The notes under the pieces: generated by a model
The model's database searches: none
What the model was told of the DNA's origin: nothing
Seen by the model: the letters and a program-made list of their open reading frames with translations, nothing else
Made by a program: the position numbers and the translations under genes
In this document: positions 9,275-48,155 of the stretch, one piece after another
Position numbering within the stretch: position 1 is the first letter of the stretch
How the letters are laid out: every line of letters starts with the position of its first letter
Assembly (NCBI GenBank): GCA_000165425.1
Contig: CT868043.1
Location: 62,001 to 126,000 of the forward strand
DNA length: 64,000 bases
Reading direction: 5' to 3'
DNA from: Paramecium tetraurelia
Lineage: Eukaryota

Positions 9275-11739
9275 TCATAAATGTTGCGGGATTTTTGAAG
9301 GCAATCCTTTCTTTGCTCTAATATCTTACAATATTTAATGGGCCTATAATCATAGACAATATCTACTTCAGAGCTCTCCTCTAATGGATCACTATTTAGA
9401 AGAGACCAATGATCAAAAGAACTTAAACTGTATGCTTTATTTTAAGTCATCTCATTTAATTAATCATGAAATTAAAATATATTAGGACCATTCACATATG
9501 CGATGATCTGGATTATAGATATATGTACTTTTTGGAATGATGTTTTAGCGAAACTCTTTTCCTCAATCACTATCCCTTATGCATTATTGATACATTTATA
9601 AACTTAGTCTATGACCTATATATTTGAGTGTATTTCAACCAAAAAGACAGGTTCCTGTAGCCTCGGTTATGCTTACAATTGGCATCCATAAAATAATCTC
9701 CTTGCTGTTGGTAGAATTTAACCTGCTCCTCTATGAATAATATCAGCATGAGATAAATATTTTAGAATATTCACCTATACTCCCCTTTATTCCTCTTCAC
9801 AAAGTGCCCCTTCTTTTGTAAACCATTACCAAGATGTATTCAAATGGTCTATAATTTCAGAAATGTGATGGTAATCCTCAGGACTTGTTTTGTTTACAAG
9901 AATATTTGGTCCTAAATTGTTTGGACCAAAAGCAAATATTTGTAATTTATCGCTTTGATACCAGTTATTTGAATTTATTTTTATGGATTATAGAAATGCC
10001 ATAGATTGGTAATCGGATTCAATTTAATTCAATAGATTATCACTTAATGGGGTTGCTTATGCTCCAATTATGTTATGTTTATTTGGGGTTTTTAATTCAT
10101 TATCTTATGATATGCCTGTGATAGTCTCTTTGTAACTAACAAAATAATTAGATTTTCTAATTTCAACACTTTTTAAATATTTATTAACTAACTCATCCAA
10201 AAAATACTGTAAAAAGTGATAAGAATTCGCAGCCAAAATCAGACAAGGATCTAATGTTAAAGAGATAGTAGGATTCAATTTTATTAACTACCTAATGGCA
10301 TCAATTACAAAAGTCAATTGGGCTGGTTCTACAGGGGTAATTGTTATCTTTACTAATTTATCTTGTTGTAATTGTATAGGCAACATTTAGATTGAAAGTT
10401 GGACATCTGTTATAGTACAAGTTCCTTTGATAAATTAATCAATTCCTTTAATTCCCACAATATTTCCAGATGGCACCTATTCTATATAAGCGGGTTCACC
10501 TATAGGAAAATAAAATGTTTATCCTACTGTTGATTAAAATAGATCAGATTTAGAGCCCTCCTTATATTGAGATCCCAAGATTCTAATTTGCTGTCCAGTA
10601 TGGATTGTTCCAGAATACACTCTCCCAATTGATATGAATTCCTATTTATATGGTATCATTAAGCAAATTTGTATCACCAAAGGCCCTTGTGGATTGCAGT
10701 CTTTAATTGATTCTAATAGTTTGTCTTCCTTATCCAACTTGAAAAGATGTGCTGCTCTGTATTTCTATGCAACCCTGGGAGGAGGTATATGGAATACACA
10801 TGACGACATAATAGAATCTGCTAAATTGATCCAGGAGTTTAGAATTGCTGACAACAATTTTTTACCATCTAACTATCGAATGTCTTCACTTAATTAAATT
10901 CCAATTCGCTCTGTCATTTAAGAGACAACATCTTTTTGACCATTCACAATTGCTTACGATAATTTTAGGATGGGATCTAAGATGAAGGTAACAAATGCTC
11001 TCTTTAATGGTTAACTCTCTATAGATGCATTCTGAGTACTCCACTATTTTTTCGTTGCATCGAAATAGTGATCACCCCATAGCTTTTTTGCTAACTTTTA
11101 ATGCTCAATTCCAAATTTTATTTCATATTATTATGCAAATTATAAACAAGTAAATCCCCATTATTGTTTTGCAGATCCAAATGTGATTTGACCAAAGGCA
11201 GGATTTATTACACTGTCTGGTTCATAGAGATAAATTATTTGATTGATTTTTTCAATTATACGATTTAAATTTAAGTAAATTTGTTCTCCATTAAGGTTTA
11301 GTTTCAAAAATGCTTTGTCAATTTTGTTTATGAAAAACACCATACGGTTTTATTCTTTCAAGAATGCTCTTATTATTGTTTCAATCTCATAATTTATTTC
11401 TAACTAAAAGTTAATTATTACAATGGCTCCATCTGACAATCTTGCTAAACTTTCTGTTTATCCGTGATAGTTATTTTAAGATTTCATTAAATTTATCAGA
11501 TAACCATCCTCATTTCCTTTTTTGCTATTGATTGGCGTATAATATAAATTTTTGATGCCACATTATGATTAGAATTCCTAGTAAAATTGCAATTCATTAT
11601 CTGTAAGAATCGCATCCTTATTAGTTTATACACCCCATTTTTGAATGAAAATGTCATGTAGGTACTTGGACCCATTATCAAGTGAACCAGATATTGCAAT
11701 ATTTCTAATTTAATCTTGAGATTTCTATGCTTAAGTCAT
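9275..11739 (-). CDS. Divergent elongation factor 2 paralog with degenerate GTPase motifs (~806 aa)
   Basis: Colinear with eEF2 (IGRVYSGTI, VPSGNIVG, VSYKETI, FGPNNLGPNIL, HADIIHRGAGQILPTARR, FDHW); two introns (21 and 23 nt); length consistent with an intact frame. Confidence 0.9.
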
Positions 11740-12159
11740 ACTCTTTATCAATTTGGAGTTGTCTTTAATCATTACTAAATTGTTAATTCTTTAATAATTT
11801 TATTATTATTGTAAGTATAGTCTAAAATCTGATATAAGGAATATCATAATACAATGAATAAATATGTATTAGACTACTGATGATAATTAGATCGCAATTA
11901 AAATGAATCAATTATTTTAATAAAAATTTAACAATATTTTTAATTAAATAATTTTTATTAATATCTTTGCAACTAAATTCAAATTAACCTATTGAACTTT
12001 CCTCATTTATTCAAAGCTATTTGTTAGACTTATTTGTAATAATAGTCTCTATCTTAGATCCTGAAATATAGTAGTGAATAAAACTATGATGGTTGAATTT
12101 AGGTATAAATTAAATTTAATGGTAATTGATGTAAATTAAAATGTTATTTTATGTAATAA

Positions 12160-13161
12160 TCATTTTCTTGCATATTTCTCTGGGTTTTCAAACACTTCAT
12201 ACAATACTTTATTTGATTTGACAATGGCACCACCATCTAAGAATCTATGATCAGCACAAAAGTTCAATTAAAAGGTGGGTGTAATAACAATCTATCCATC
12301 CTTGACGAGTGTCTTCTCTACAATTTGATTAACAGTGACCATCAATAAATTTCTCATCATGGGAGTGAATGGAGCAATCGCATTTTTAAATCCGAGAGTT
12401 CCAATAGAAGTCACTGTTGCTATTCCAAAGCAATCCTTCTTCAAACCTAATGCCTTGATTGTAATTCCCAAATTATATGTAAGAAAAGATGTAATTTAAA
12501 TAAGTAAAGCAATGACACTATGAATTTAAACAATAAAAATACAATGGAGGAAAGAACCTGAGCATGCCTGATCTTTATTGATGTTCCTCATCCTTTCCTT
12601 GCTTGGTCATCTTAGCTTTACCATTTATGTATTCAGCAATATCTTCAAAGGTTTTCTTATCAGCATTTTAAACCAACAAGGCTGCTAGGTCGTCTCCCTC
12701 TCCTATGTTCACCAAACATGAGACATCAATAGTAGGAAACTCAACGAATTTTCCGAAGACTATCTTTCCGCAGATCTTCTTTCTGGTGGCACTAATACAT
12801 TCAGCTACGGCTCTAATACAGATGTGGGTTAAGGTCACACGGGAATCTCTTAATAAATTGATGAGATATCTTACTTAGCCTGTTTAGACTGGAGATATTT
12901 CATGGTGTTGGTTAGGTCGATTTCCACTAGGTTATAAATGATTCCTTCAGTTGGAGCACTCCAAAGGGCCTAAGACAATCTTCTTCTGCCAGATCCATAG
13001 CCAACATTGGGATAGCACAAATAGGATAATGCTTGATAAACAGCTATTGGATAAGATTGAGTACTACCTATGATGCCAAGAAATATGTATAGGAGTCTAG
13101 TGTCATAAAGGAATGAGTAGATTAGTACTGACGCTATGAAAGCGTTGTTTACGATTGTCAT
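12160..13161 (-). CDS. 2-oxoacid dehydrogenase acyltransferase (E2-type) catalytic domain protein with N-terminal hydrophobic segment, no lipoyl domain
   Basis: VTLTHICIRAVA, TSIGTLG, catalytic ADHRFLDGG; three introns. Confidence 0.8.
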
Positions 13162-14258: not shown

Positions 14259-16122
14259 TCAATAAAATGCATAAATAATCACACTCACTATCAATGTCCA
14301 CAATGGTAATTACGTTGGTTTCTCTTTCGATTTATTGGCAGCAGATTCAAATTCATACTTCTACTTTATGCTTTGCAATTAACTATCCTACAATGAAATT
14401 GAAGGCAAGTAAACTGATTTCCAAATTCTTTTCCAAAAGTTTCCAGTTTGTATCATCTCAGTGACATTCGTAAAGTAATATAGATACTTATTAATTCTAA
14501 TGTACTTGGGTGGTTTCTTTTAAAATGGATTGCTAGAAACAAAGTCCTCAATATTTTAACCATCCAACATCTTATAAACAAGGTGAATCTAATTTATAAA
14601 CATTACAATTTACTAAATATAAATCTGAAGGATTTTCTTATAAGGATGCAAACCATAATTACCAATCCAATCTAGGTTGATGAGGTACAACAAATGGTGA
14701 TATTTCATTAAGCTTTCCAGGTTTATAATGGAAATGATATTCTAACCATTTGTTGCCATCATCGCTGCCTTCAAAAATAAGTTCAGGTCTGCCATTTACA
14801 CCAGTCATTTTTCTGAATAAGCCATAACTATTAAAGAGATGAAAGGGATATGTGTAACCTTGAATATATTACAAATATTGCTATGGTATGATGGGACTAT
14901 TAATTTGTCTGAGACCTATTCCTTATTGGAATGTCAGATTGGACATGCTAAACATAGTGATAAACACAACAATTTTAATCAATGTTTGTGTGATGGCAGC
15001 CATAGTGCTTTGAGCAGTAGCATTCTGAAGATTGAAATATGTAATATAGAAAAAGAAGAATGTCAACACATATAGTAAAAAATAAGTTAAAGTATCTTCT
15101 GTGAGAAAGTACTTTCCAATATCTTAAACAGTGAACGGGAGTTTCTTGCCCTGCATTATAGTTTCGTAAGGGAAGAAGTTGTAGATTAGTACTCCAGTCA
15201 TATAGAAGCAAATGACAATTTCAGAGTATTTGTAAATTCTTTTGTTCTCTTTTTAATCAAATTCTTCAATTGTTTTAGGCATATTAATAAATTACTTTAT
15301 TTGACTGGGGAAGTACTTATAAATGAAGTGATCATCCAACACTACCATTGCAAGGACAATGGATAACAGATTAAAAAAGTTATAATTTCCTGTTAGGATG
15401 ATGCCGATTTGCATTAAGAATTGCAAAATGAATCCAAATATTCTCATAAATCTTCTGGGGAAGTAGAAGTAAATAGCTCCAAAAATAAGTACATAGAAAT
15501 TGGAAGCCACCATCAGTTTTTTGAGTTCCCCTGGTAATTGATGTGCCCACCAGGATAGAAAGTGAGGTATGCATTACGATGCAAAATGATGATGCAATGC
15601 AGTCAGATTCCACCATGTATCGCATTGACTTAAGAGTTTGACCAATCCACTGGAAAAGTAGAGTCTAAATGCAAGCCAACGAAGCAATTCTCTTCCTACA
15701 ATGGGTGTAATGCAAAAGATTATACAAATGAAGCCAGTCTCCAAAAGCATTATGTCCCATTGGAATTGGCTGAAGTCCTAACCTACTGTATAAAGGGAAA
15801 GGTACAACACCCACAATATAAAGAAGGTGTACCATTTAATGAATTTGGAGGATGCAAATGCTAATAAGCCAATGAGGGTGCCCACAATTGTAATCATGGT
15901 AAGAAAGGATGCTTTTTTATATAGTTGGAGGAGAGTGGGCATTTTGGTGACATCGTACCATTCCATTTTGGATATAGGCATCAATCCATTGTTAGCATAG
16001 AGTGCTGGTATTTGGTAGTACCAACTGGAGAAGGCAAATGCATAGATTAGACCAATCAATCTCAATATCAGTTGTTGCAGGTATTGGATTTTCTCTCCTT
16101 GACAATTTTTGGAGGTAAGCAT
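14259..16122 (-). CDS. LMF: Lipase maturation factor family membrane protein
   Basis: [74 protein letters not shown]. Confidence 0.92.
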
Positions 16123-16143
16123 TAATAATAAATAAATTAATAA

Positions 16144-16541
16144 ATGAGATTAAATACTTTACCGGATGTTCTATTTCCAAATCCCATTCAGCATCCGAAT
16201 TACAAGATCTCCTTTCTAGGGAAGGTCAAAGAAGAAATCTTTAATGTATATGCATGATTTGAATGTAGAATCAATTCTAAATTGAACCCATGAGAATGAG
16301 CAGATAAAATATGACAATACGTTCACTAAAGAGAGGATCAATTAGAGTTGTTAGTGCATCGAATGTCACATCTCAAAACAACACGCAAACTAATTTTAGA
16401 TCTGGATCTTCAAAGTTCAAGATAATCAAGGAGCATTCTCAGATAGAAGAAATGGATGAAACATTTTCTCGAACAAGGACACCTTCTCAACTAGTAAGAC
16501 GATTAAAAAGAGGACTATCAATGTTTGAAAAATAGCTGTGA
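16144..16541 (+). CDS. Small hypothetical protein
   Basis: ATG..TGA open in table 6 after removing a 23-nt GT-AG intron near 16246-16268. Confidence 0.6.
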
Positions 16542-38392: not shown

Positions 38393-40466
38393 TCAATCTT
38401 GCTTTTAATTTTATTAACTCTTTGATTTGAATAACTTATATCCTAAATACAAGATAAATGAGCCAGAAAAAGCTGATATTATTCCTACTTTCGACTTGAT
38501 TCCACTCTTCACAATGAATGAAGAAGCACCAGTAGCAACAGCAACAGAAACACCTAATATACCAATTTCTTGGGGCACTTATTAAAGTATTTACGAAAAA
38601 GGTGTATTAGTATCACTTTTGTGAGATCTAATTGACGATTATTATTCGATATTAGTTTATGGTAACAAAGGTTCTTAATTTTGAACTTATTAAGTTTGAC
38701 TTTCAACAAATTAAGGAACTAATTCTTATTTTTAATTGAATGACTTATTCTCTTAATCCACTTGCTATACTTCTACTTTAACAGCAGCATCATGACTTAC
38801 TTAAACTTATAATTATGGCTTTTGTTCAATGACTTCTCTTTTCTCAACATTAACTATTTCATGAGATGGTTGATTTTCTATAAGAGTTTGAGCTTATTAT
38901 ATAACATGAACCTTCTCTTCTTCTTGAACTAATTGTGTTTATTGTTACTTTGCTTCCACCTTTACTATTTATTAAGGTTCAGAACTAGCTTTAGTATCGT
39001 TAACCTAAATTTCTGTTTAAGGAGCTTTGACAGAAATTTGAGTCTATTTCTATTATTCAATAATTGCTTATGATTTATGTTCAAAAGAGTGTGGACGGGG
39101 TTGAACTTATTCGATGAATTGATTGACCTCTAGATTAACTACAGAGTGTTCAAGAAGAGTTGTAGTTTATGCGTTAATTGGAATTTCAACTTAAGGACGC
39201 TTCTCCACTTGATTCTCTAAGTTTCTTGATTCCAAATTGATTTCTGGTTTTGAAGCATCTTAGTGAACTTCTAATTACACAGCTGGTGCTTCTTATATGT
39301 ACACACTTTCATTTGGCTTTTCTGTTTACATTTTTGTACTCTTCTCTGTCACAATTTTACTTTAATGATTTTAAATTTCAGTCTAAGCCTAGCTTTGATT
39401 TTCTGATTTCTGTATGATTACCTCTTATCTATTTTATGGTTATTTCTCTACTTCGATTTATTAGTGTTATTCTATATGTGTTTTTGGTTAGATTTCAATA
39501 TGGGTTTGTTCCACTTATTTATCCATTTTTTATTCTTAGACTCTCTCCAAAATGACTTCATCATTTTATTTCTTTAAATTGGTTTTTGGAGCACCTTCTA
39601 TAAGTACTTGGTCATTTTATTTTTCCACAACAATGGGAGCCTATACATTCAAAACAACTTCCTATTATTAAGTCTAAGCATTGAGAGGTTACTAGATTGG
39701 ATCCTATTAGTGTTGTTAAACTTCTTTTTATTTTTTTTGGCTTGATACACTTGGTTTTGAAGAGGGTTTCATTGTATTTTCATTTGTAGAATCAGGTGCA
39801 GATTAAGTTTGCAATTTGAGTTCTTCAATTTAATGTTATAGTTCCTTTTTATTTTATCCTTGAGTTTCGTTTTCGTATTAATGATCTTGATTTTTGATAC
39901 TGTCTACTTATAAATTAGAAGTTCCAGAACTAATAATTTCTACTTTTTCCTGTTATTGTTGTTATTACTTTTCAGCTGTCTATTAAATTTAAGTCGTAGA
40001 TTTGTCTCCTTAAGAAACTTCTTAAGAGACCTACTCTTGAGGCTATTGAACTTCTTCTTATGTTTTAATTGACTCTTCTTGGGTCTTTGTGATGCTATCC
40101 TCTTATTTTTATTGTTACACATCTCCAAACTAGTTGTGGTCATTTTCCTCATCTTTTGTTGTTTCCTGATGAGCATTATGAATATCTTTTTGTTGATCCT
40201 ATTGTTATTATTATGTAATAGAATTTTAAACTTAAACTTATTCTTGTGCTTATTCCTTATTTTCGACTTTCTATATTTATTCTTGAGCTTATTCAATGTT
40301 TTAATCTGAAATAAATTAAATTACTACTTTATTCATTTTTAATTTCCTAATCCTCTACTTTTTTATCTATGTCTTGTGCTGATTGTATTTGATCTTCTTA
40401 TTCGGTTTGATCTGTATTTTGATCTTATTTATTTTTTGTATTTTATCTCTTATTTTTTCTTGGCAT
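38393..40466 (-). CDS. Low-complexity Q/E/V-rich protein with C-terminal hydrophobic segment
   Basis: Long table-6 frame; GILGVSVAVATGASSFIV near the end; last exon and stop uncertain. Confidence 0.6.
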
Positions 40467-45617: not shown

Positions 45618-48155
45618 TCATATTTTGTCTAAATATTCGTTTAGGTCTGGGAGCTAAACCTTGATTCCCTTTCTCTTTCTTATACTCAGTACCAATTCAT
45701 TAATTTTTGAACCAGGCTCTAGTGGATCACCATTGAGTATAGCCCAATGATCAAACACACACTAAGGGAAGGCTTAACCTTGAGTAAGACCTCTGAGATG
45801 GGCTGTGAATCCGAAAGACTCAGCAACAGGCAAATATGATCTAATCTAAAAATATTAAATTGATATAATTACTAATGATAGAGGTGTTCCTGGAACTTGT
45901 TCTTCTTCAATAATCACTCCTCTTCTTGTATTCAAACAGTTATACACACCACCAGTTGAATCAATAGGCACAGTAATTTCTGCTAAAAAGACGGGTTCTT
46001 AAAGTTTAGGTTATGCTGTCAATTCACAGGCATAGTACAATCTTCTGGCTGTTGGTATAATTTGTCCTCCTCCTCTATGAATGGCATCAGCATGTAAGAC
46101 ACAATCTAGGATATTTACTCTGACTCCCCTTTGGTTCTCTTCACAAAGTGGACCTTCTTTGCTAGACCATTACCAAGCACTTTCCATAGATTCTCTAATT
46201 TCATTCATATACTGAACACCTGATGTTTTTTCCATCAGAATATTTGGACCTGAATTGTCAGGACCGAAAGTCCATATCTTAAGGGCATCATCCTTATCCC
46301 ATTCATATTGTTCTGATAGTATTTTAGCTCTTCCTTTATTATCATCCTTCGCTGTGACTTCTCCTTTCTCGATGGCATTTTGAAGTCCTTCATGAAGTGG
46401 CTCTGCTTAAGCATAGAGTCTGTTGTGACTATTAGGAGATTTGGCCATACATACAATTTTGGATGTAGCTGAAACAGTCTCCTTATAAGATACGATGGGA
46501 TCTGATCTTATGATTTCAATGTTAGCGAAGTCCTTCTCTAAATCATTCAAGCATATCTCTACATGCAATTCTCCACATCCTGCTACCACATGCTATCCTG
46601 ACTCCTCAGTTGTACAAAGCACCAAAGGATCTGATTTAGCTAATCTCTTCAACCCCTCTACTAATTTTGGTAGTTCTCCTGGGTTCTTAGGCTTGACTGC
46701 CACTCTCACTACAGGTGATACTGAATATTTCATTGATCTGATCAAATGACTTTCAGGATTATCTGAGATAGTACCTGTCTTCAATATGACATCATCCACA
46801 CCAACTAGACCAACAGTATTACCACATGGGACATCAGGTATGTATTCTACTTTACTAGCCATCATCAATACTGTTCTTTGGACTACCTTCTCAAACAAGT
46901 CTTCTTTCTTTCCAGGCTTATAATTTGGTCCCATGATTCTCACCTTCTATCCTGTGCCTATGGTGCCTGAAAACACTCGACCAAAGGCAAAGAATCTACT
47001 TCTATCAGAGGTTGGTACCATCTTTGATACATACATAATCAAGGGTCCTTTGGGATTGCACTCTCTCATTGATTAAGCTATGGCATCATCCTAAGGTCCT
47101 TCATAAAGATAAGAGGTTCTGTATTTCTAAGCCTCTCTAGGTGATGGCAGATGACAAATAATCATCTCAATCAAGGTGTCTGCAGCATTAATCCACTTTG
47201 ACATAACAGCTTTCAAGAGATGCTTACCATTCAACTTCTACTCTTCCTATGTAAGTTTCAACCCTAAGACATTGAACATCTTATTAGCTACTTCCATATT
47301 ACCTTCCATGATAGCATTGGCCATCTTACATATGGGATCCATAATGAAGGCAACGAAAGCTCTCTTCAATTACTTTCCTGAAGCTCCTTCACTATCCTTC
47401 CTCCAACATTTGCTCTCATCATCAAAGTAGTTGTCACCCCACAATCTTTCTTGTAGTTTCTTTGGTTCAACCTTGAATTTGGCAGCATATATCATGGCGA
47501 ATTTCGAACATGAAAATGCCCAGCATTCCTTACCTGATCCAAAGGCTACCTACCCAAGTTCTGGTTGTACTTATAGTTCTCCCATGTCCTCTTGTTGATA
47601 GGTGGAAATGATCACGTTCACATTATCAATGACTCTGACAAATTTCTGGTACATAGTCTCACCATCAAGTTTTTGTTCCAGTATTGCTCTATCAATCTTA
47701 TTTATCATCACCACTGGCTTGATCTTCTCTTGCATGGCTTGTCTGAGTACTGTCTCTGTCTGCACACAGACTCCTTCCACACAGTCCACAACTACCAAGG
47801 CTCCGTCAGTCACTCTGAGAGCTGCTGTGACTTCAGAACTAAAGTCTACATGTCCTGGAGAGTCTATCAAATTGATCAAGAACTACTCCTTGACGTTGTT
47901 GTAGTTAATATCAAATTCATAGTACAATGATACTCCTGTAGACTTGATTGTTATCCCTCTTAATTGTTCATCCTCTCTTGTGTCAGTCATTCTCTTGTCT
48001 CCACTCTCTTTGGCTGACAAGATCCCAGCCTTACAGAGCAAAGAATCGGTTAGAGTTGACTTTCCGTGGTCGACATGAGCGATGACTGACATGTTTCTGA
48101 TGTTCTATTGCTTATTCATGATCTCTCTTATTTGATCTACAGTGAAGTTAACCAT
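45618..48155 (-). CDS. EEF2: Eukaryotic translation elongation factor 2 (836 aa)
   Basis: [64 protein letters not shown]; one 27-nt intron at 45846-45872. Confidence 0.98.

What the first reader, a model, noticed from the sequence alone, without database searches (positions are those of the whole stretch)
9275..11739. Intact GTPase-dead eEF2 paralog that keeps the diphthamide loop
Seen: a full-length ~806-aa EF2-like frame with no lesion found. Compared with the canonical eEF2 in this window, G1 AHVDHGKST becomes GSLDNGSKY, switch I RGITIKS is unrecognisable and G3 DSPGH becomes KSQNN. G4 NKID and the domain IV tip HADIIHRGAGQILPTARR are retained. Known: G1 Lys-Ser/Thr and DxxGH are required for GTP binding and hydrolysis, and the retained His is the diphthamide site, which EFL1/Ria1 and Snu114 generally lack. 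Inference: selection keeps ribosome-contact surfaces but not catalysis, suggesting a ribosome hibernation or clamp factor, a stage-specific translation inhibitor, or a decoy for Dph enzymes or ADP-ribosylating toxins. I recall EF2-related, developmentally induced genes being reported in Tetrahymena; this needs checking before claiming novelty.
Basis: partly seen in the sequence, partly recalled or inferred. Interest (0 to 1): 0.8.

Follow-up and report, generated by a model that had tools for sequence, protein, structure and literature searches.

The report
GTPase-dead eEF2 paralog in Paramecium
Paramecium keeps an intact, weakly transcribed copy of translation elongation factor 2 that has lost its GTP-binding motifs but kept the ribosome-probing tip with the diphthamide histidine, which makes it a candidate GTP-independent ribosome-binding regulator.

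Summary
Window 11739..9275 (- strand, three exons) is the annotated but uncharacterised P. tetraurelia gene GSPATT00035363001 (806 aa). It is 38% identical to the canonical eEF2 that lies 34 kb away in the same window. G1, switch I and G3 are destroyed. NKID, the diphthamide loop and the second domain IV loop (TPNKHN) are kept.

Orthologs exist in P. octaurelia, P. pentaurelia and P. primaurelia, each on the same contig as a canonical eEF2. They evolve about four times faster than that neighbour. Their sites still vary less where canonical eEF2 is invariant (p=0.0004), most clearly in domain IV and the G'' insert and not in the G core.

The paralog clade sits among ciliate eEF2s. Grouping with Snu114 or EFL1 is rejected (AU p about 0.0005). 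It is transcribed at a low level from the sense strand. Intron 1 is spliced, but the only RNA contig that covers intron 2 retains it.

The function is untested. My best inference is a nucleotide-independent occupant of the ribosomal factor and A site. dN/dS and stage-specific expression could not be obtained. In my library searches I found no paper on it. Nine other 50%-identity clusters, including Aphanomyces and Entamoeba, show the same motif pattern.

The parts
9275..11739 (-). Annotated coding region of the eEF2 paralog GSPATT00035363001 (806 aa, three exons, TGA stop at 9277-9275)
   Evidence: The spliced translation equals P0003.
11770..11772 (-). Upstream in-frame ATG, the probable true start. 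It adds MIKDNSKLIKS and gives 817 aa.
   Evidence: The orthologs are annotated at 817-818 aa with homologous N-terminal extensions. This is an inference.
9529..11739 (-). Exon 1 (737 codons): G domain remnant, G'' insert, domains II, III and IV, and the start of V
9508..9528 (-). Intron 1, 21 nt (GTA...CAG), phase 0. It sits at the same alignment position as the 27-nt intron of the canonical eEF2.
   Evidence: It is removed in RNA contig X12 record 1. Sequence, position.
9367..9507 (-). Exon 2 (47 codons), domain V
9344..9366 (-). Intron 2, 23 nt (GTA...TAG). Its removal is needed to reach the conserved eEF2-like C-terminus.
   Evidence: The spliced frame gives AHQILQDIRAKKGLPSKIPQHL, which is conserved in the four orthologs and homologous to the canonical C-terminus. 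However, the only RNA contig across it retains it.
9275..9343 (-). Exon 3 (22 codons plus stop), the C-terminal helix. It lacks the last six residues of canonical eEF2.
11662..11688 (-). Remnant of G1 / P-loop, residues 18-26, GSLDNGSKY (canonical AHVDHGKST)
   Evidence: It is not conserved among the orthologs.
11470..11484 (-). Remnant of G3 / switch II, residues 86-90, KSQNN (canonical DSPGH)
   Evidence: KSQNN in three of four orthologs, KPQNN in P. octaurelia.
11317..11328 (-). G4, residues 138-141, NKID, retained
   Evidence: It reads NKIE in P. pentaurelia and P. primaurelia.
10072..10089 (-). Second domain IV tip loop, residues 551-556, TPNKHN (canonical SPNSHN / SPNKHN)
   Evidence: Identical in all four orthologs.
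9697..9750 (-). Diphthamide loop, residues 664-681, HADIIHRGAGQILPTARR. His669 (codon 9735-9733) aligns with the modified histidine.
45618..48155 (-). Comparator and probable parent locus: canonical eEF2 GSPATT00035387001 (836 aa after removal of the in-frame 27-nt intron 45846-45872)
   Evidence: the spliced translation equals P0361

Best explanation
What is shown. This is a Paramecium-lineage duplicate of eEF2 that has become a pseudo-GTPase. The P-loop, switch I and switch II are gone, and domain III, which couples the nucleotide state to domain IV, has been rewritten. The five-domain fold is still predicted. The G'' insert, domain II and the domain IV tip with the diphthamide histidine remain recognisably eEF2-like. 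The gene is kept intact in at least four aurelia species and is transcribed at a low level.

What is inferred. The protein no longer binds or hydrolyses GTP and cannot drive translocation. It can probably still dock in the ribosomal factor site with domain IV in the A site, as eEF2 does on dormant 80S ribosomes. It would then act as a GTP-independent occupant, that is, an elongation brake or a ribosome-parking factor. It is probably still a substrate for diphthamide synthesis.

I put the descriptive part at about 0.9. The ribosome-occupant mechanism I put at about 0.4.
For: Motifs: G1, switch I and G3 are lost. G4, the diphthamide loop and the second loop are kept in tet and oct. The diphthamide loop and TPNKHN are identical in type in 4 of 4 orthologs. 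Pfam GTP_EFTU scores 37 bits against 174 bits for the canonical protein, and there is no EFG_III hit.

Descent:
- Best PDB sequence matches are eEF2 (489 bits), ahead of Snu114 (372 bits) and EFL1 (177 bits).
- In the 26-row tree the paralogs are sister to Paramecium canonical eEF2 (SH-aLRT 92), inside a starred ciliate-type group (98).
- AU rejects union with Snu114 (p=0.00049) and with EFL1 (p=0.00056).
- Intron 1 lies at the same position as the canonical intron.
- Paralog and canonical eEF2 share a contig in 4 of 4 species.

Maintenance:
- Full-length orthologs exist in P. octaurelia (91.1% identical), P. pentaurelia and P. primaurelia (76.9%). The syntenic canonical eEF2s are 97.6% and 94.0% identical.
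- Among the four orthologs, 67/317 columns that are invariant in canonical eEF2 vary, against 148/451 other columns (Fisher p=0.0004).
- By domain, the variable share of invariant versus other columns is: G'' 5% vs 36%, IV 17% vs 33%, II 16% vs 30%, G core 28% vs 32%.
- tet-oct differences are 4/148 at sites where pent and prim keep the invariant residue, against 65/620 elsewhere (p=0.002).

Fold: the AlphaFold2 model has mean pLDDT 86.7 and pTM 0.79. Foldseek top hits are eEF2 structures, TM 0.70-0.78.

Transcription: sense-strand poly(A) reads at depth about 2-3 in 3 of 3 raw runs, and a spliced RNA contig.
Against: - No ribosome binding, nucleotide binding or modification was tested, and none could be.
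- dN/dS could not be computed because no ortholog DNA was available. The case for selection rests on protein-level patterns and on automated gene models, which can hide frameshifts inside tiny predicted introns.
- The reciprocal constraint test is not significant: pent-prim differences are 4/153 against 20/615, p=1.0.
- The G core and domain III contact the sarcin-ricin loop and uS12 in canonical eEF2 (my recall of structural literature). They are the most altered parts, so stable factor-site binding is not assured.
- Expression is low, about 2-5% of the neighbouring E2 acyltransferase gene, and the growth conditions of the runs are unknown.
- The single RNA contig across intron 2 retains it. 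That would replace the conserved C-terminus with an unrelated tail (868 aa).
- No ortholog was seen for P. sonneborni.
- With other long-branch sequences included, the paralog groups with them rather than with Paramecium eEF2. The AU test cannot decide between the two placements (p=0.415).
Confidence: 0.45

Rival explanations
1. Non-ribosomal neofunctionalisation. The eEF2 scaffold has been recruited to another machine, much as Snu114 was recruited to the spliceosome. The domain IV loops are kept for a new RNA or protein partner.
For: The stem branch is very long (about 2 substitutions per site). 112 of 317 canonical-invariant columns are replaced by a residue that is fixed in all four orthologs. 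The G core and domain III are rewritten. EF2-family precedents are Snu114 and EFL1 (Atkinson 2015, PMC4342817, passages seen).
Against: The best-kept ancestral residues are the A-site tip loops, including the diphthamide histidine, and these have no known role off the ribosome. The protein has no added domains or extensions.
Confidence: 0.2
2. Decoy or sink. The protein exists mainly to present a diphthamide loop, either as a competing substrate for Dph enzymes or as a target that absorbs ADP-ribosylating toxins from bacteria.
For: The loop H-x-D-x-x-H-R-G and the neighbouring residues are retained in 4 of 4 orthologs.
Against: Transcript levels are low compared with what a stoichiometric sink for abundant eEF2 would need. 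Constraint extends well beyond the loop, to the G'' insert and domain II. No toxin context is known for this locus.
Confidence: 0.1
3. A relaxed duplicate drifting towards pseudogene status. It is still open only because TGA is the sole stop codon and because too little time has passed.
For: Expression is low and intron 2 is retained in the only contig that covers it. The gene evolves about four times faster than its neighbour. The pent-prim test is not significant. No P. sonneborni ortholog was found.
Against: The frame is open in four species, while the off-frames carry 18 and 33 TGAs. Site variability still tracks eEF2 constraint (p=0.0004). The crown divergence is small relative to the stem. 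Synteny and the conserved C-terminal frame after intron 2 are maintained.
Confidence: 0.1
4. It is still an NTPase that uses non-canonical residues, for example the shifted Lys25 in tet and oct, and acts as a slow alternative translocase like some bacterial EF-G2 proteins.
For: NKID and GSAK are kept in tet and oct. In B. thetaiotaomicron, fusA2 is an alternative factor induced under carbon limitation (PMC6989115, passages seen).
Against: The Lys is absent in pent and prim (GTFDNGQQY / GTFDNGQQQ) and G4 becomes NKIE there. The Asp and Gly of DxxG and the switch I Thr region are missing in all four orthologs.
Confidence: 0.05

Closest known systems
Canonical eEF2 (Paramecium GSPATT00035387001 in this window; yeast eEF2, PDB 1N0V/1N0U)
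   Same: It shares the five-domain architecture, the G'' insert, the HxDxxHRG diphthamide loop, the second tip loop and one intron position. It lies on the same contig, and the phylogeny nests it among ciliate eEF2s.
   Different: G1, switch I and G3 are absent. Domain III is only 19% identical. The last six C-terminal residues are missing. It evolves about four times faster and has far lower transcript depth and GC3 (0.24 vs 0.36).
Bacterial EFG II / EF-G2 paralogs (Margus et al. 2011, PMC3150367, listing only; B. thetaiotaomicron fusA2, PMC6989115, passages; mycobacterial EF-G2, preprint 10.64898/2026.05.25.727771, abstract)
   Same: These are a second, divergent translocase copy with impaired GTPase motifs. 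They are expressed at low levels in growth and are described as stress-specific factors. This is a functional analogy.
   Different: They are bacterial and arose independently. EF-G2 proteins generally keep a P-loop and bind nucleotide; the usual loss is of the catalytic His (my recall, and earlier scan notes). Here the whole nucleotide pocket is degenerate.
Archaeal aEF-2p (Narrowe et al. 2018, PMC6143161; passages seen)
   Same: It is an EF-2 duplicate judged unable to act as a translocase.
   Different: It is the mirror image. aEF-2p keeps G1-G5 and loses both domain IV loops. The Paramecium protein loses G1-G3 and keeps both loops.
Snu114 and EFL1/Ria1
   Same: They are ancient eEF2-derived paralogs with new roles.
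   Different: Both keep the GTPase motifs and carry large extensions or insertions. Union with either is rejected by AU (p about 0.0005), and their PDB sequence scores are lower.
Uncharacterised degenerate eEF2-like proteins of other eukaryotes (for example Aphanomyces euteiches KAF0731449, Entamoeba marina KAL7712479)
   Same: They show the same combination in alignment columns: no GK[ST], no DxxG, no catalytic His, and HRG kept. This holds for 10 of 108 complete sequences among the 150 best representatives, the Paramecium protein included (names).
   Different: They are at most 36% identical to it. Common origin versus convergence is unresolved. I found no literature on them.

Membership tests
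eEF2 (EF2 subfamily of translational GTPases) | Five-domain architecture G(+G'')-II-III-IV-V | tested here: met
   Pfam finds GTP_EFTU, D2 and EFG_IV, with a weak EFG_C hit on exon 1 only. The AF2 model has pLDDT 86.7. Foldseek matches eEF2 structures at TM 0.70-0.78. Domain III is not recognised by Pfam.
eEF2 (EF2 subfamily of translational GTPases) | Functional G1 (GxxxxGK[ST]), switch I Thr and G3 (DxxGH) motifs | tested here: not met
   GSLDNGSKY, no RGITIKS counterpart, and KSQNN. The motifs are degenerate in 4 of 4 orthologs.
eEF2 (EF2 subfamily of translational GTPases) | Domain IV tip loops: HxDxxHRG with the diphthamide His, and SPNKHN | tested here: met
   HADIIHRG and TPNKHN are present in 4 of 4 orthologs. 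The loop definitions are from Narrowe 2018.
eEF2 (EF2 subfamily of translational GTPases) | Phylogenetic placement inside the eEF2 clade | tested here: met
   In the 26-row tree it is sister to Paramecium eEF2. AU rejects Snu114 and EFL1. With other long branches included the exact position is unresolved.
eEF2 (EF2 subfamily of translational GTPases) | Ribosome-dependent GTPase and translocase activity; diphthamide actually present | not testable with these tools
   This needs biochemistry and mass spectrometry.
Snu114 | Long acidic N-terminal extension, retained G motifs (GHLHHGKT type), clade membership | tested here: not met
   There is no extension (806-817 aa). PDB sequence score is 372 bits against 489 for eEF2. 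AU p=0.00049. That the GHLHHGKT-type rows are Snu114 is my assignment from motif and length, supported by the PDB names.
EFL1/Ria1 | About 1000-1100 aa with a large insertion, retained G motifs, clade membership | tested here: not met
   Length is 806 aa. The Pfam EFL1 domain scores below its cut-off (23.6 bits, cut-off 30.9). PDB 5anb scores 177 bits. AU p=0.00056.
Pseudo-GTPase (a descriptive class, not a homology family) | GTPase fold with loss of residues needed for nucleotide binding or hydrolysis, maintained by selection | tested here: inconclusive
   Motif loss is shown. Maintenance is supported at protein level. Nucleotide binding was not measured and dN/dS was not computed.

The most novel reading that the evidence does not exclude
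This gene is a genetically tractable example of an unrecognised, recurrently evolved class of eukaryotic nucleotide-free, diphthamide-bearing eEF2 mimics. Such proteins would sit in the ribosomal factor and A site without GTP and act as dedicated ribosome-parking or elongation-brake factors. Counterparts with the same motif pattern occur in oomycetes, Amoebozoa and other protists.
Probability: 0.25. Interest if true: 0.8.

Novelty: new variant of a known kind. Interest (0 to 1): 0.6.

Why it matters
eEF2 is among the most conserved eukaryotic proteins, and its known ancient paralogs (Snu114, EFL1) keep their GTPase motifs. A maintained copy that has discarded the nucleotide pocket but kept the A-site tip and the diphthamide histidine separates the two halves of the molecule in nature.

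If it binds ribosomes, it would show what domain IV and diphthamide can do without GTP-driven movement. That could make it a eukaryotic counterpart of bacterial stress-specific EF-G2 factors, or a dedicated version of the eEF2 seen on dormant ribosomes.

Paramecium offers RNAi by feeding, tagging and staged starvation and autogamy, so the question can be tested. The same motif pattern in unrelated eukaryotes suggests a wider class that has been overlooked.

Tried and rejected
- Whole-genome search of the window's own assembly: no genome is held. I could not look for further copies or obtain ortholog DNA, so no dN/dS.
- Stage-specific expression: the supplements of Arnaiz 2010 are PDFs that cannot be read here. 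The one readable supplement of Arnaiz 2017 does not contain the gene id. The gene id occurs in no searchable full text. Unseen supplements and ParameciumDB may hold autogamy expression data that bear on the stage-specific idea.
- Literature searches that gave nothing relevant: eEF2 + paralog + ciliate (24 papers, top 15 listed); 'elongation factor 2' + pseudo-GTPase (0); Paramecium + 'elongation factor 2' + autogamy (0); Tetrahymena + 'elongation factor 2' + conjugation (5); pseudoGTPase + 'elongation factor' (1, on septins); Tetrahymena + EF-2 (6).
- Earlier scan notes: none on this sequence or topic. Notes on bacterial EF-G2 served only as a lead.
- treekit's AU test on the 45-row set did not finish in four calls. 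I ran the test with iqtree2 under the PMSF model on the saved trees instead.
- The regex motif survey was replaced by an alignment-column survey.
- I did not use the conformation of the AF2 model (closest to ribosome-bound eEF2) as evidence, because predicted conformations reflect the training data.
- I sent no complex-prediction job, because no specific binding partner is claimed.
- An N-terminal-region search for orthologs with the same degenerate G domain found only the tet and pent clusters above 37% identity.
Full report
**1. What is there.**
Under the ciliate code the - strand carries an open frame from 11847 to 9112.
- exon 1, 11739-9529
- a 21-nt intron, 9528-9508
- exon 2, 9507-9367
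- a 23-nt intron, 9366-9344
- exon 3, 9343-9275, ending in TGA

The spliced translation is 806 aa. It is identical to the public protein XP_001433631.1 / CAK66234.1, 'uncharacterized protein GSPATT00035363001' of Paramecium tetraurelia. The coding frame has no TGA apart from the stop, while the two other frames have 18 and 33.

An in-frame ATG 33 nt upstream (11772) would add MIKDNSKLIKS. This matches the 817-818-aa annotated orthologs and the N-terminal length of canonical eEF2. I think it is the likelier start.

**2. The motif claims.**
The window's canonical eEF2 (48155..45618, - strand; 836 aa once its in-frame 27-nt intron is removed) is identical to GSPATT00035387001. It aligns with the paralog at 285/752 = 38% identity.

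| Element | Canonical eEF2 | Paralog |
|---|---|---|
| G1 | AHVDHGKST | GSLDNGSKY |
| Switch I | RGITIKS | no counterpart; the stretch is shorter |
| G3 | DSPGH | KSQNN |
| G4 | NKID | NKID |
| G5 | GSGK | GSAK |
| Second domain IV loop | SPNSHN | TPNKHN |
| Diphthamide loop | [18 protein letters not shown] | HADIIHRGAGQILPTARR |

These are shown. Pfam still detects the G domain, but at 37 bits against 174 bits for the canonical protein. It no longer detects domain III.

**3. Relatives and synteny.**
- A word-indexed search found only two close clusters: P. tetraurelia and P. pentaurelia at 76% identity. The next hit is at 34%.
- A search restricted to residues 1-240 gave the same picture.
- An exhaustive HMMER search of 1.84 billion representatives put the protein's own cluster at 1823 bits and the next at 488 bits.
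- Cluster look-ups added P. octaurelia (CAD8181979) and P. primaurelia (CAD8076081).
- In all four species the paralog lies on the same contig as a canonical eEF2, 24-52 accession numbers away.
- No P. sonneborni ortholog appeared. These searches are limited by length range and annotation, so this is weak evidence of absence.

**4. Descent.**
- PDB sequence matches favour eEF2 (489 bits) over Snu114 (372 bits) and EFL1 (177 bits).
- In a 45-row tree that included many other divergent eEF2-like sequences, the paralog (stem 1.7 substitutions per site) fell among those long branches.
- The tree that forces it together with Paramecium eEF2 is only 3.8 lnL units worse and is not rejected (AU p=0.415).
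- Without the other long branches (26 rows) it is sister to Paramecium canonical eEF2 (SH-aLRT 92), within a starred group of ciliate-type eEF2s (98).
- Forcing it with Snu114 or EFL1 costs 36 and 42 lnL units and is rejected (AU p=0.00049 and 0.00056).
- Intron 1 sits at exactly the alignment position of the canonical gene's only intron.

Together with the synteny, a duplication of eEF2 in the Paramecium lineage followed by a burst of change is the best reading. Its date is open.

**5. Is it maintained?**
I could not obtain ortholog DNA, so dN/dS is not available. At protein level the pairwise identities are as follows.

| Pair | Paralog | Syntenic canonical eEF2 |
|---|---|---|
| tet-oct | 91.1% | 97.6% |
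| tet-pent | 76.9% | 94.0% |
| pent-prim | 96.9% | 97.8% |

The paralog therefore diverges about 3.7, 3.9 and 1.4 times faster than a gene under strong constraint.

I classified alignment columns using nine canonical eEF2s only. Among the four paralogs, 67/317 canonical-invariant columns vary, against 148/451 other columns (Fisher p=0.0004).

| Domain | Invariant columns still ancestral in all four | Variable share, invariant vs other columns |
|---|---|---|
| G'' insert | 81% | 5% vs 36% |
| IV | 64% | 17% vs 33% |
| II | 45% | 16% vs 30% |
| V | 35% | 18% vs 24% |
| G core | 34% | 28% vs 32% |
| III | 17% | 31% vs 45% |

The number of invariant columns per domain is 21-88, so the per-domain values are rough.

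Two branch-independent tests gave different results. tet-oct differences are depleted where pent and prim keep the invariant residue (4/148 vs 65/620, p=0.002). The reciprocal pent-prim test, with only 24 differences, is not significant (4/153 vs 20/615, p=1.0).

The P-loop remnant itself differs between orthologs (GSLDNGSKY, GSLDNGTKQ, GTFDNGQQY, GTFDNGQQQ), and G4 is NKIE in pent and prim. This argues against any surviving nucleotide pocket.

**6. Fold.**
AlphaFold2 with a 65-sequence alignment gives mean pLDDT 86.7 and pTM 0.79. Only residues 578-597 fall below 50. Foldseek returns eEF2 structures first.

**7. Transcription.**
- In three oligo-dT, stranded raw-read runs the gene body has a mean depth of about 2-3. 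All of it is in the orientation expected for a - strand RNA.
- The intergenic bin 11841-12007 has depth 0. The neighbouring 2-oxoacid dehydrogenase E2 gene has depth 40-150.
- Contigs of a fourth RNA run cover 9314-11554. One of them lacks exactly the 21 nt of intron 1, so it derives from spliced RNA.
- The same contig retains intron 2. With that intron retained the protein would end in an unrelated 868-aa reading.
- The spliced reading gives a C-terminus that is conserved in all four orthologs and homologous to eEF2's. I therefore accept the intron, but its splicing efficiency is unexplained.
- The conditions of the runs are unknown to me. Stage specificity could not be checked.

**8. Mechanism.**
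Shown: the nucleotide-binding and catalytic motifs are lost. Domain III, which in EF-G and eEF2 relays the nucleotide state (established knowledge), is rewritten. Ancestral constraint persists in domain IV, G'' and II.

Inferred: the protein cannot use GTP or translocate, yet it can still insert domain IV into the A site. Canonical eEF2 is found on dormant 80S ribosomes; several such entries appear. A copy dedicated to occupancy would not need a GTPase.

The residues I recall as required for diphthamide formation in yeast eEF2 (H694, D696, I698, H699, G701) all have counterparts, so modification is likely but untested.

The rivals are a non-ribosomal role, a decoy, a decaying duplicate and a non-canonical NTPase. 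They are weighed in their own sections.

**9. Known and new.**
- Atkinson 2015 notes in one sentence that P. tetraurelia has highly divergent duplicates of core translational GTPases (passages).
- Narrowe 2018 describes archaeal aEF-2p, which keeps G1-G5 and loses the domain IV loops. It is the mirror image of this protein (passages).
- Bacterial EF-G2 proteins are the nearest functional analogy.
- I found no paper on this gene or on GTPase-dead eukaryotic eEF2 paralogs.
- Among the 150 best representatives, 108 cover both the G and domain IV regions. Of these, 10 (this protein included) lack GK[ST], DxxG and the catalytic His but keep HRG. A further 11 have lost the diphthamide His as well.
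- Named examples of degenerate eEF2-like proteins come from Aphanomyces, Entamoeba marina, Dictyostelium, Pelomyxa, Pyxidicula, Adineta, Dactylellina, Mycena and Cladochytrium.
- Whether these are convergent is unresolved.

**10. Verdict.**
This is a real, intact, maintained and weakly expressed pseudo-GTPase derivative of eEF2. It is a new variant of a known kind, with an untested but testable ribosome-occupant hypothesis.

Noticed in passing
window 45618-48155 (-), intron 45846-45872: The canonical eEF2 GSPATT00035387001 has one 27-nt intron whose length is a multiple of three and which has no in-frame TGA, so retention would simply add 9 residues. The paralog's 21-nt intron 1 has the same property. 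I recall that such stop-free 3n introns are under-represented in Paramecium (Jaillon et al. 2008; not checked here).
   Followed up: partly
proteins P0361, P0362, P0377, P0230 and the cluster members: Paramecium 'canonical' eEF2 is itself a small family. There are two subfamilies about 84-86% identical to each other. The window's copy is 89.5% identical to another P. tetraurelia eEF2 in the same 90%-identity cluster, presumably its whole-genome-duplication partner. P. tetraurelia also has several partial gene models (507, 430, 429 and 174 aa). For eEF2 this is unusually high within-genus divergence.
   Followed up: partly
representatives P0076-P0223: Many eukaryotes carry eEF2-like proteins with partly or fully degenerate G motifs. 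Named cases are Dictyostelium, Aphanomyces, Entamoeba marina, Pelomyxa, Pyxidicula, Adineta vaga, and the fungi Dactylellina, Mycena and Cladochytrium. None appears in the literature I could search.
   Followed up: partly
window 9344-9366: Intron 2 of the paralog is retained in the one RNA contig that spans it, even though the same contig has intron 1 removed. The raw-read runs were too shallow at this place to judge.
   Followed up: partly
window 12160-13000 (-) and 14548-16359 (-): The neighbouring genes are ordinary. One is a 2-oxoacid dehydrogenase acyltransferase (Pfam PF00198), transcribed 20-50 times more strongly than the paralog. The other is a lipase maturation factor homolog (PF06762, PF25179).
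   Followed up: yes
window 38393-40336 (-): This open frame has 100 TAA/TAG codons read as Gln among 647 codons, which makes it very Gln-rich or low in complexity. I did not examine it.
   Followed up: no
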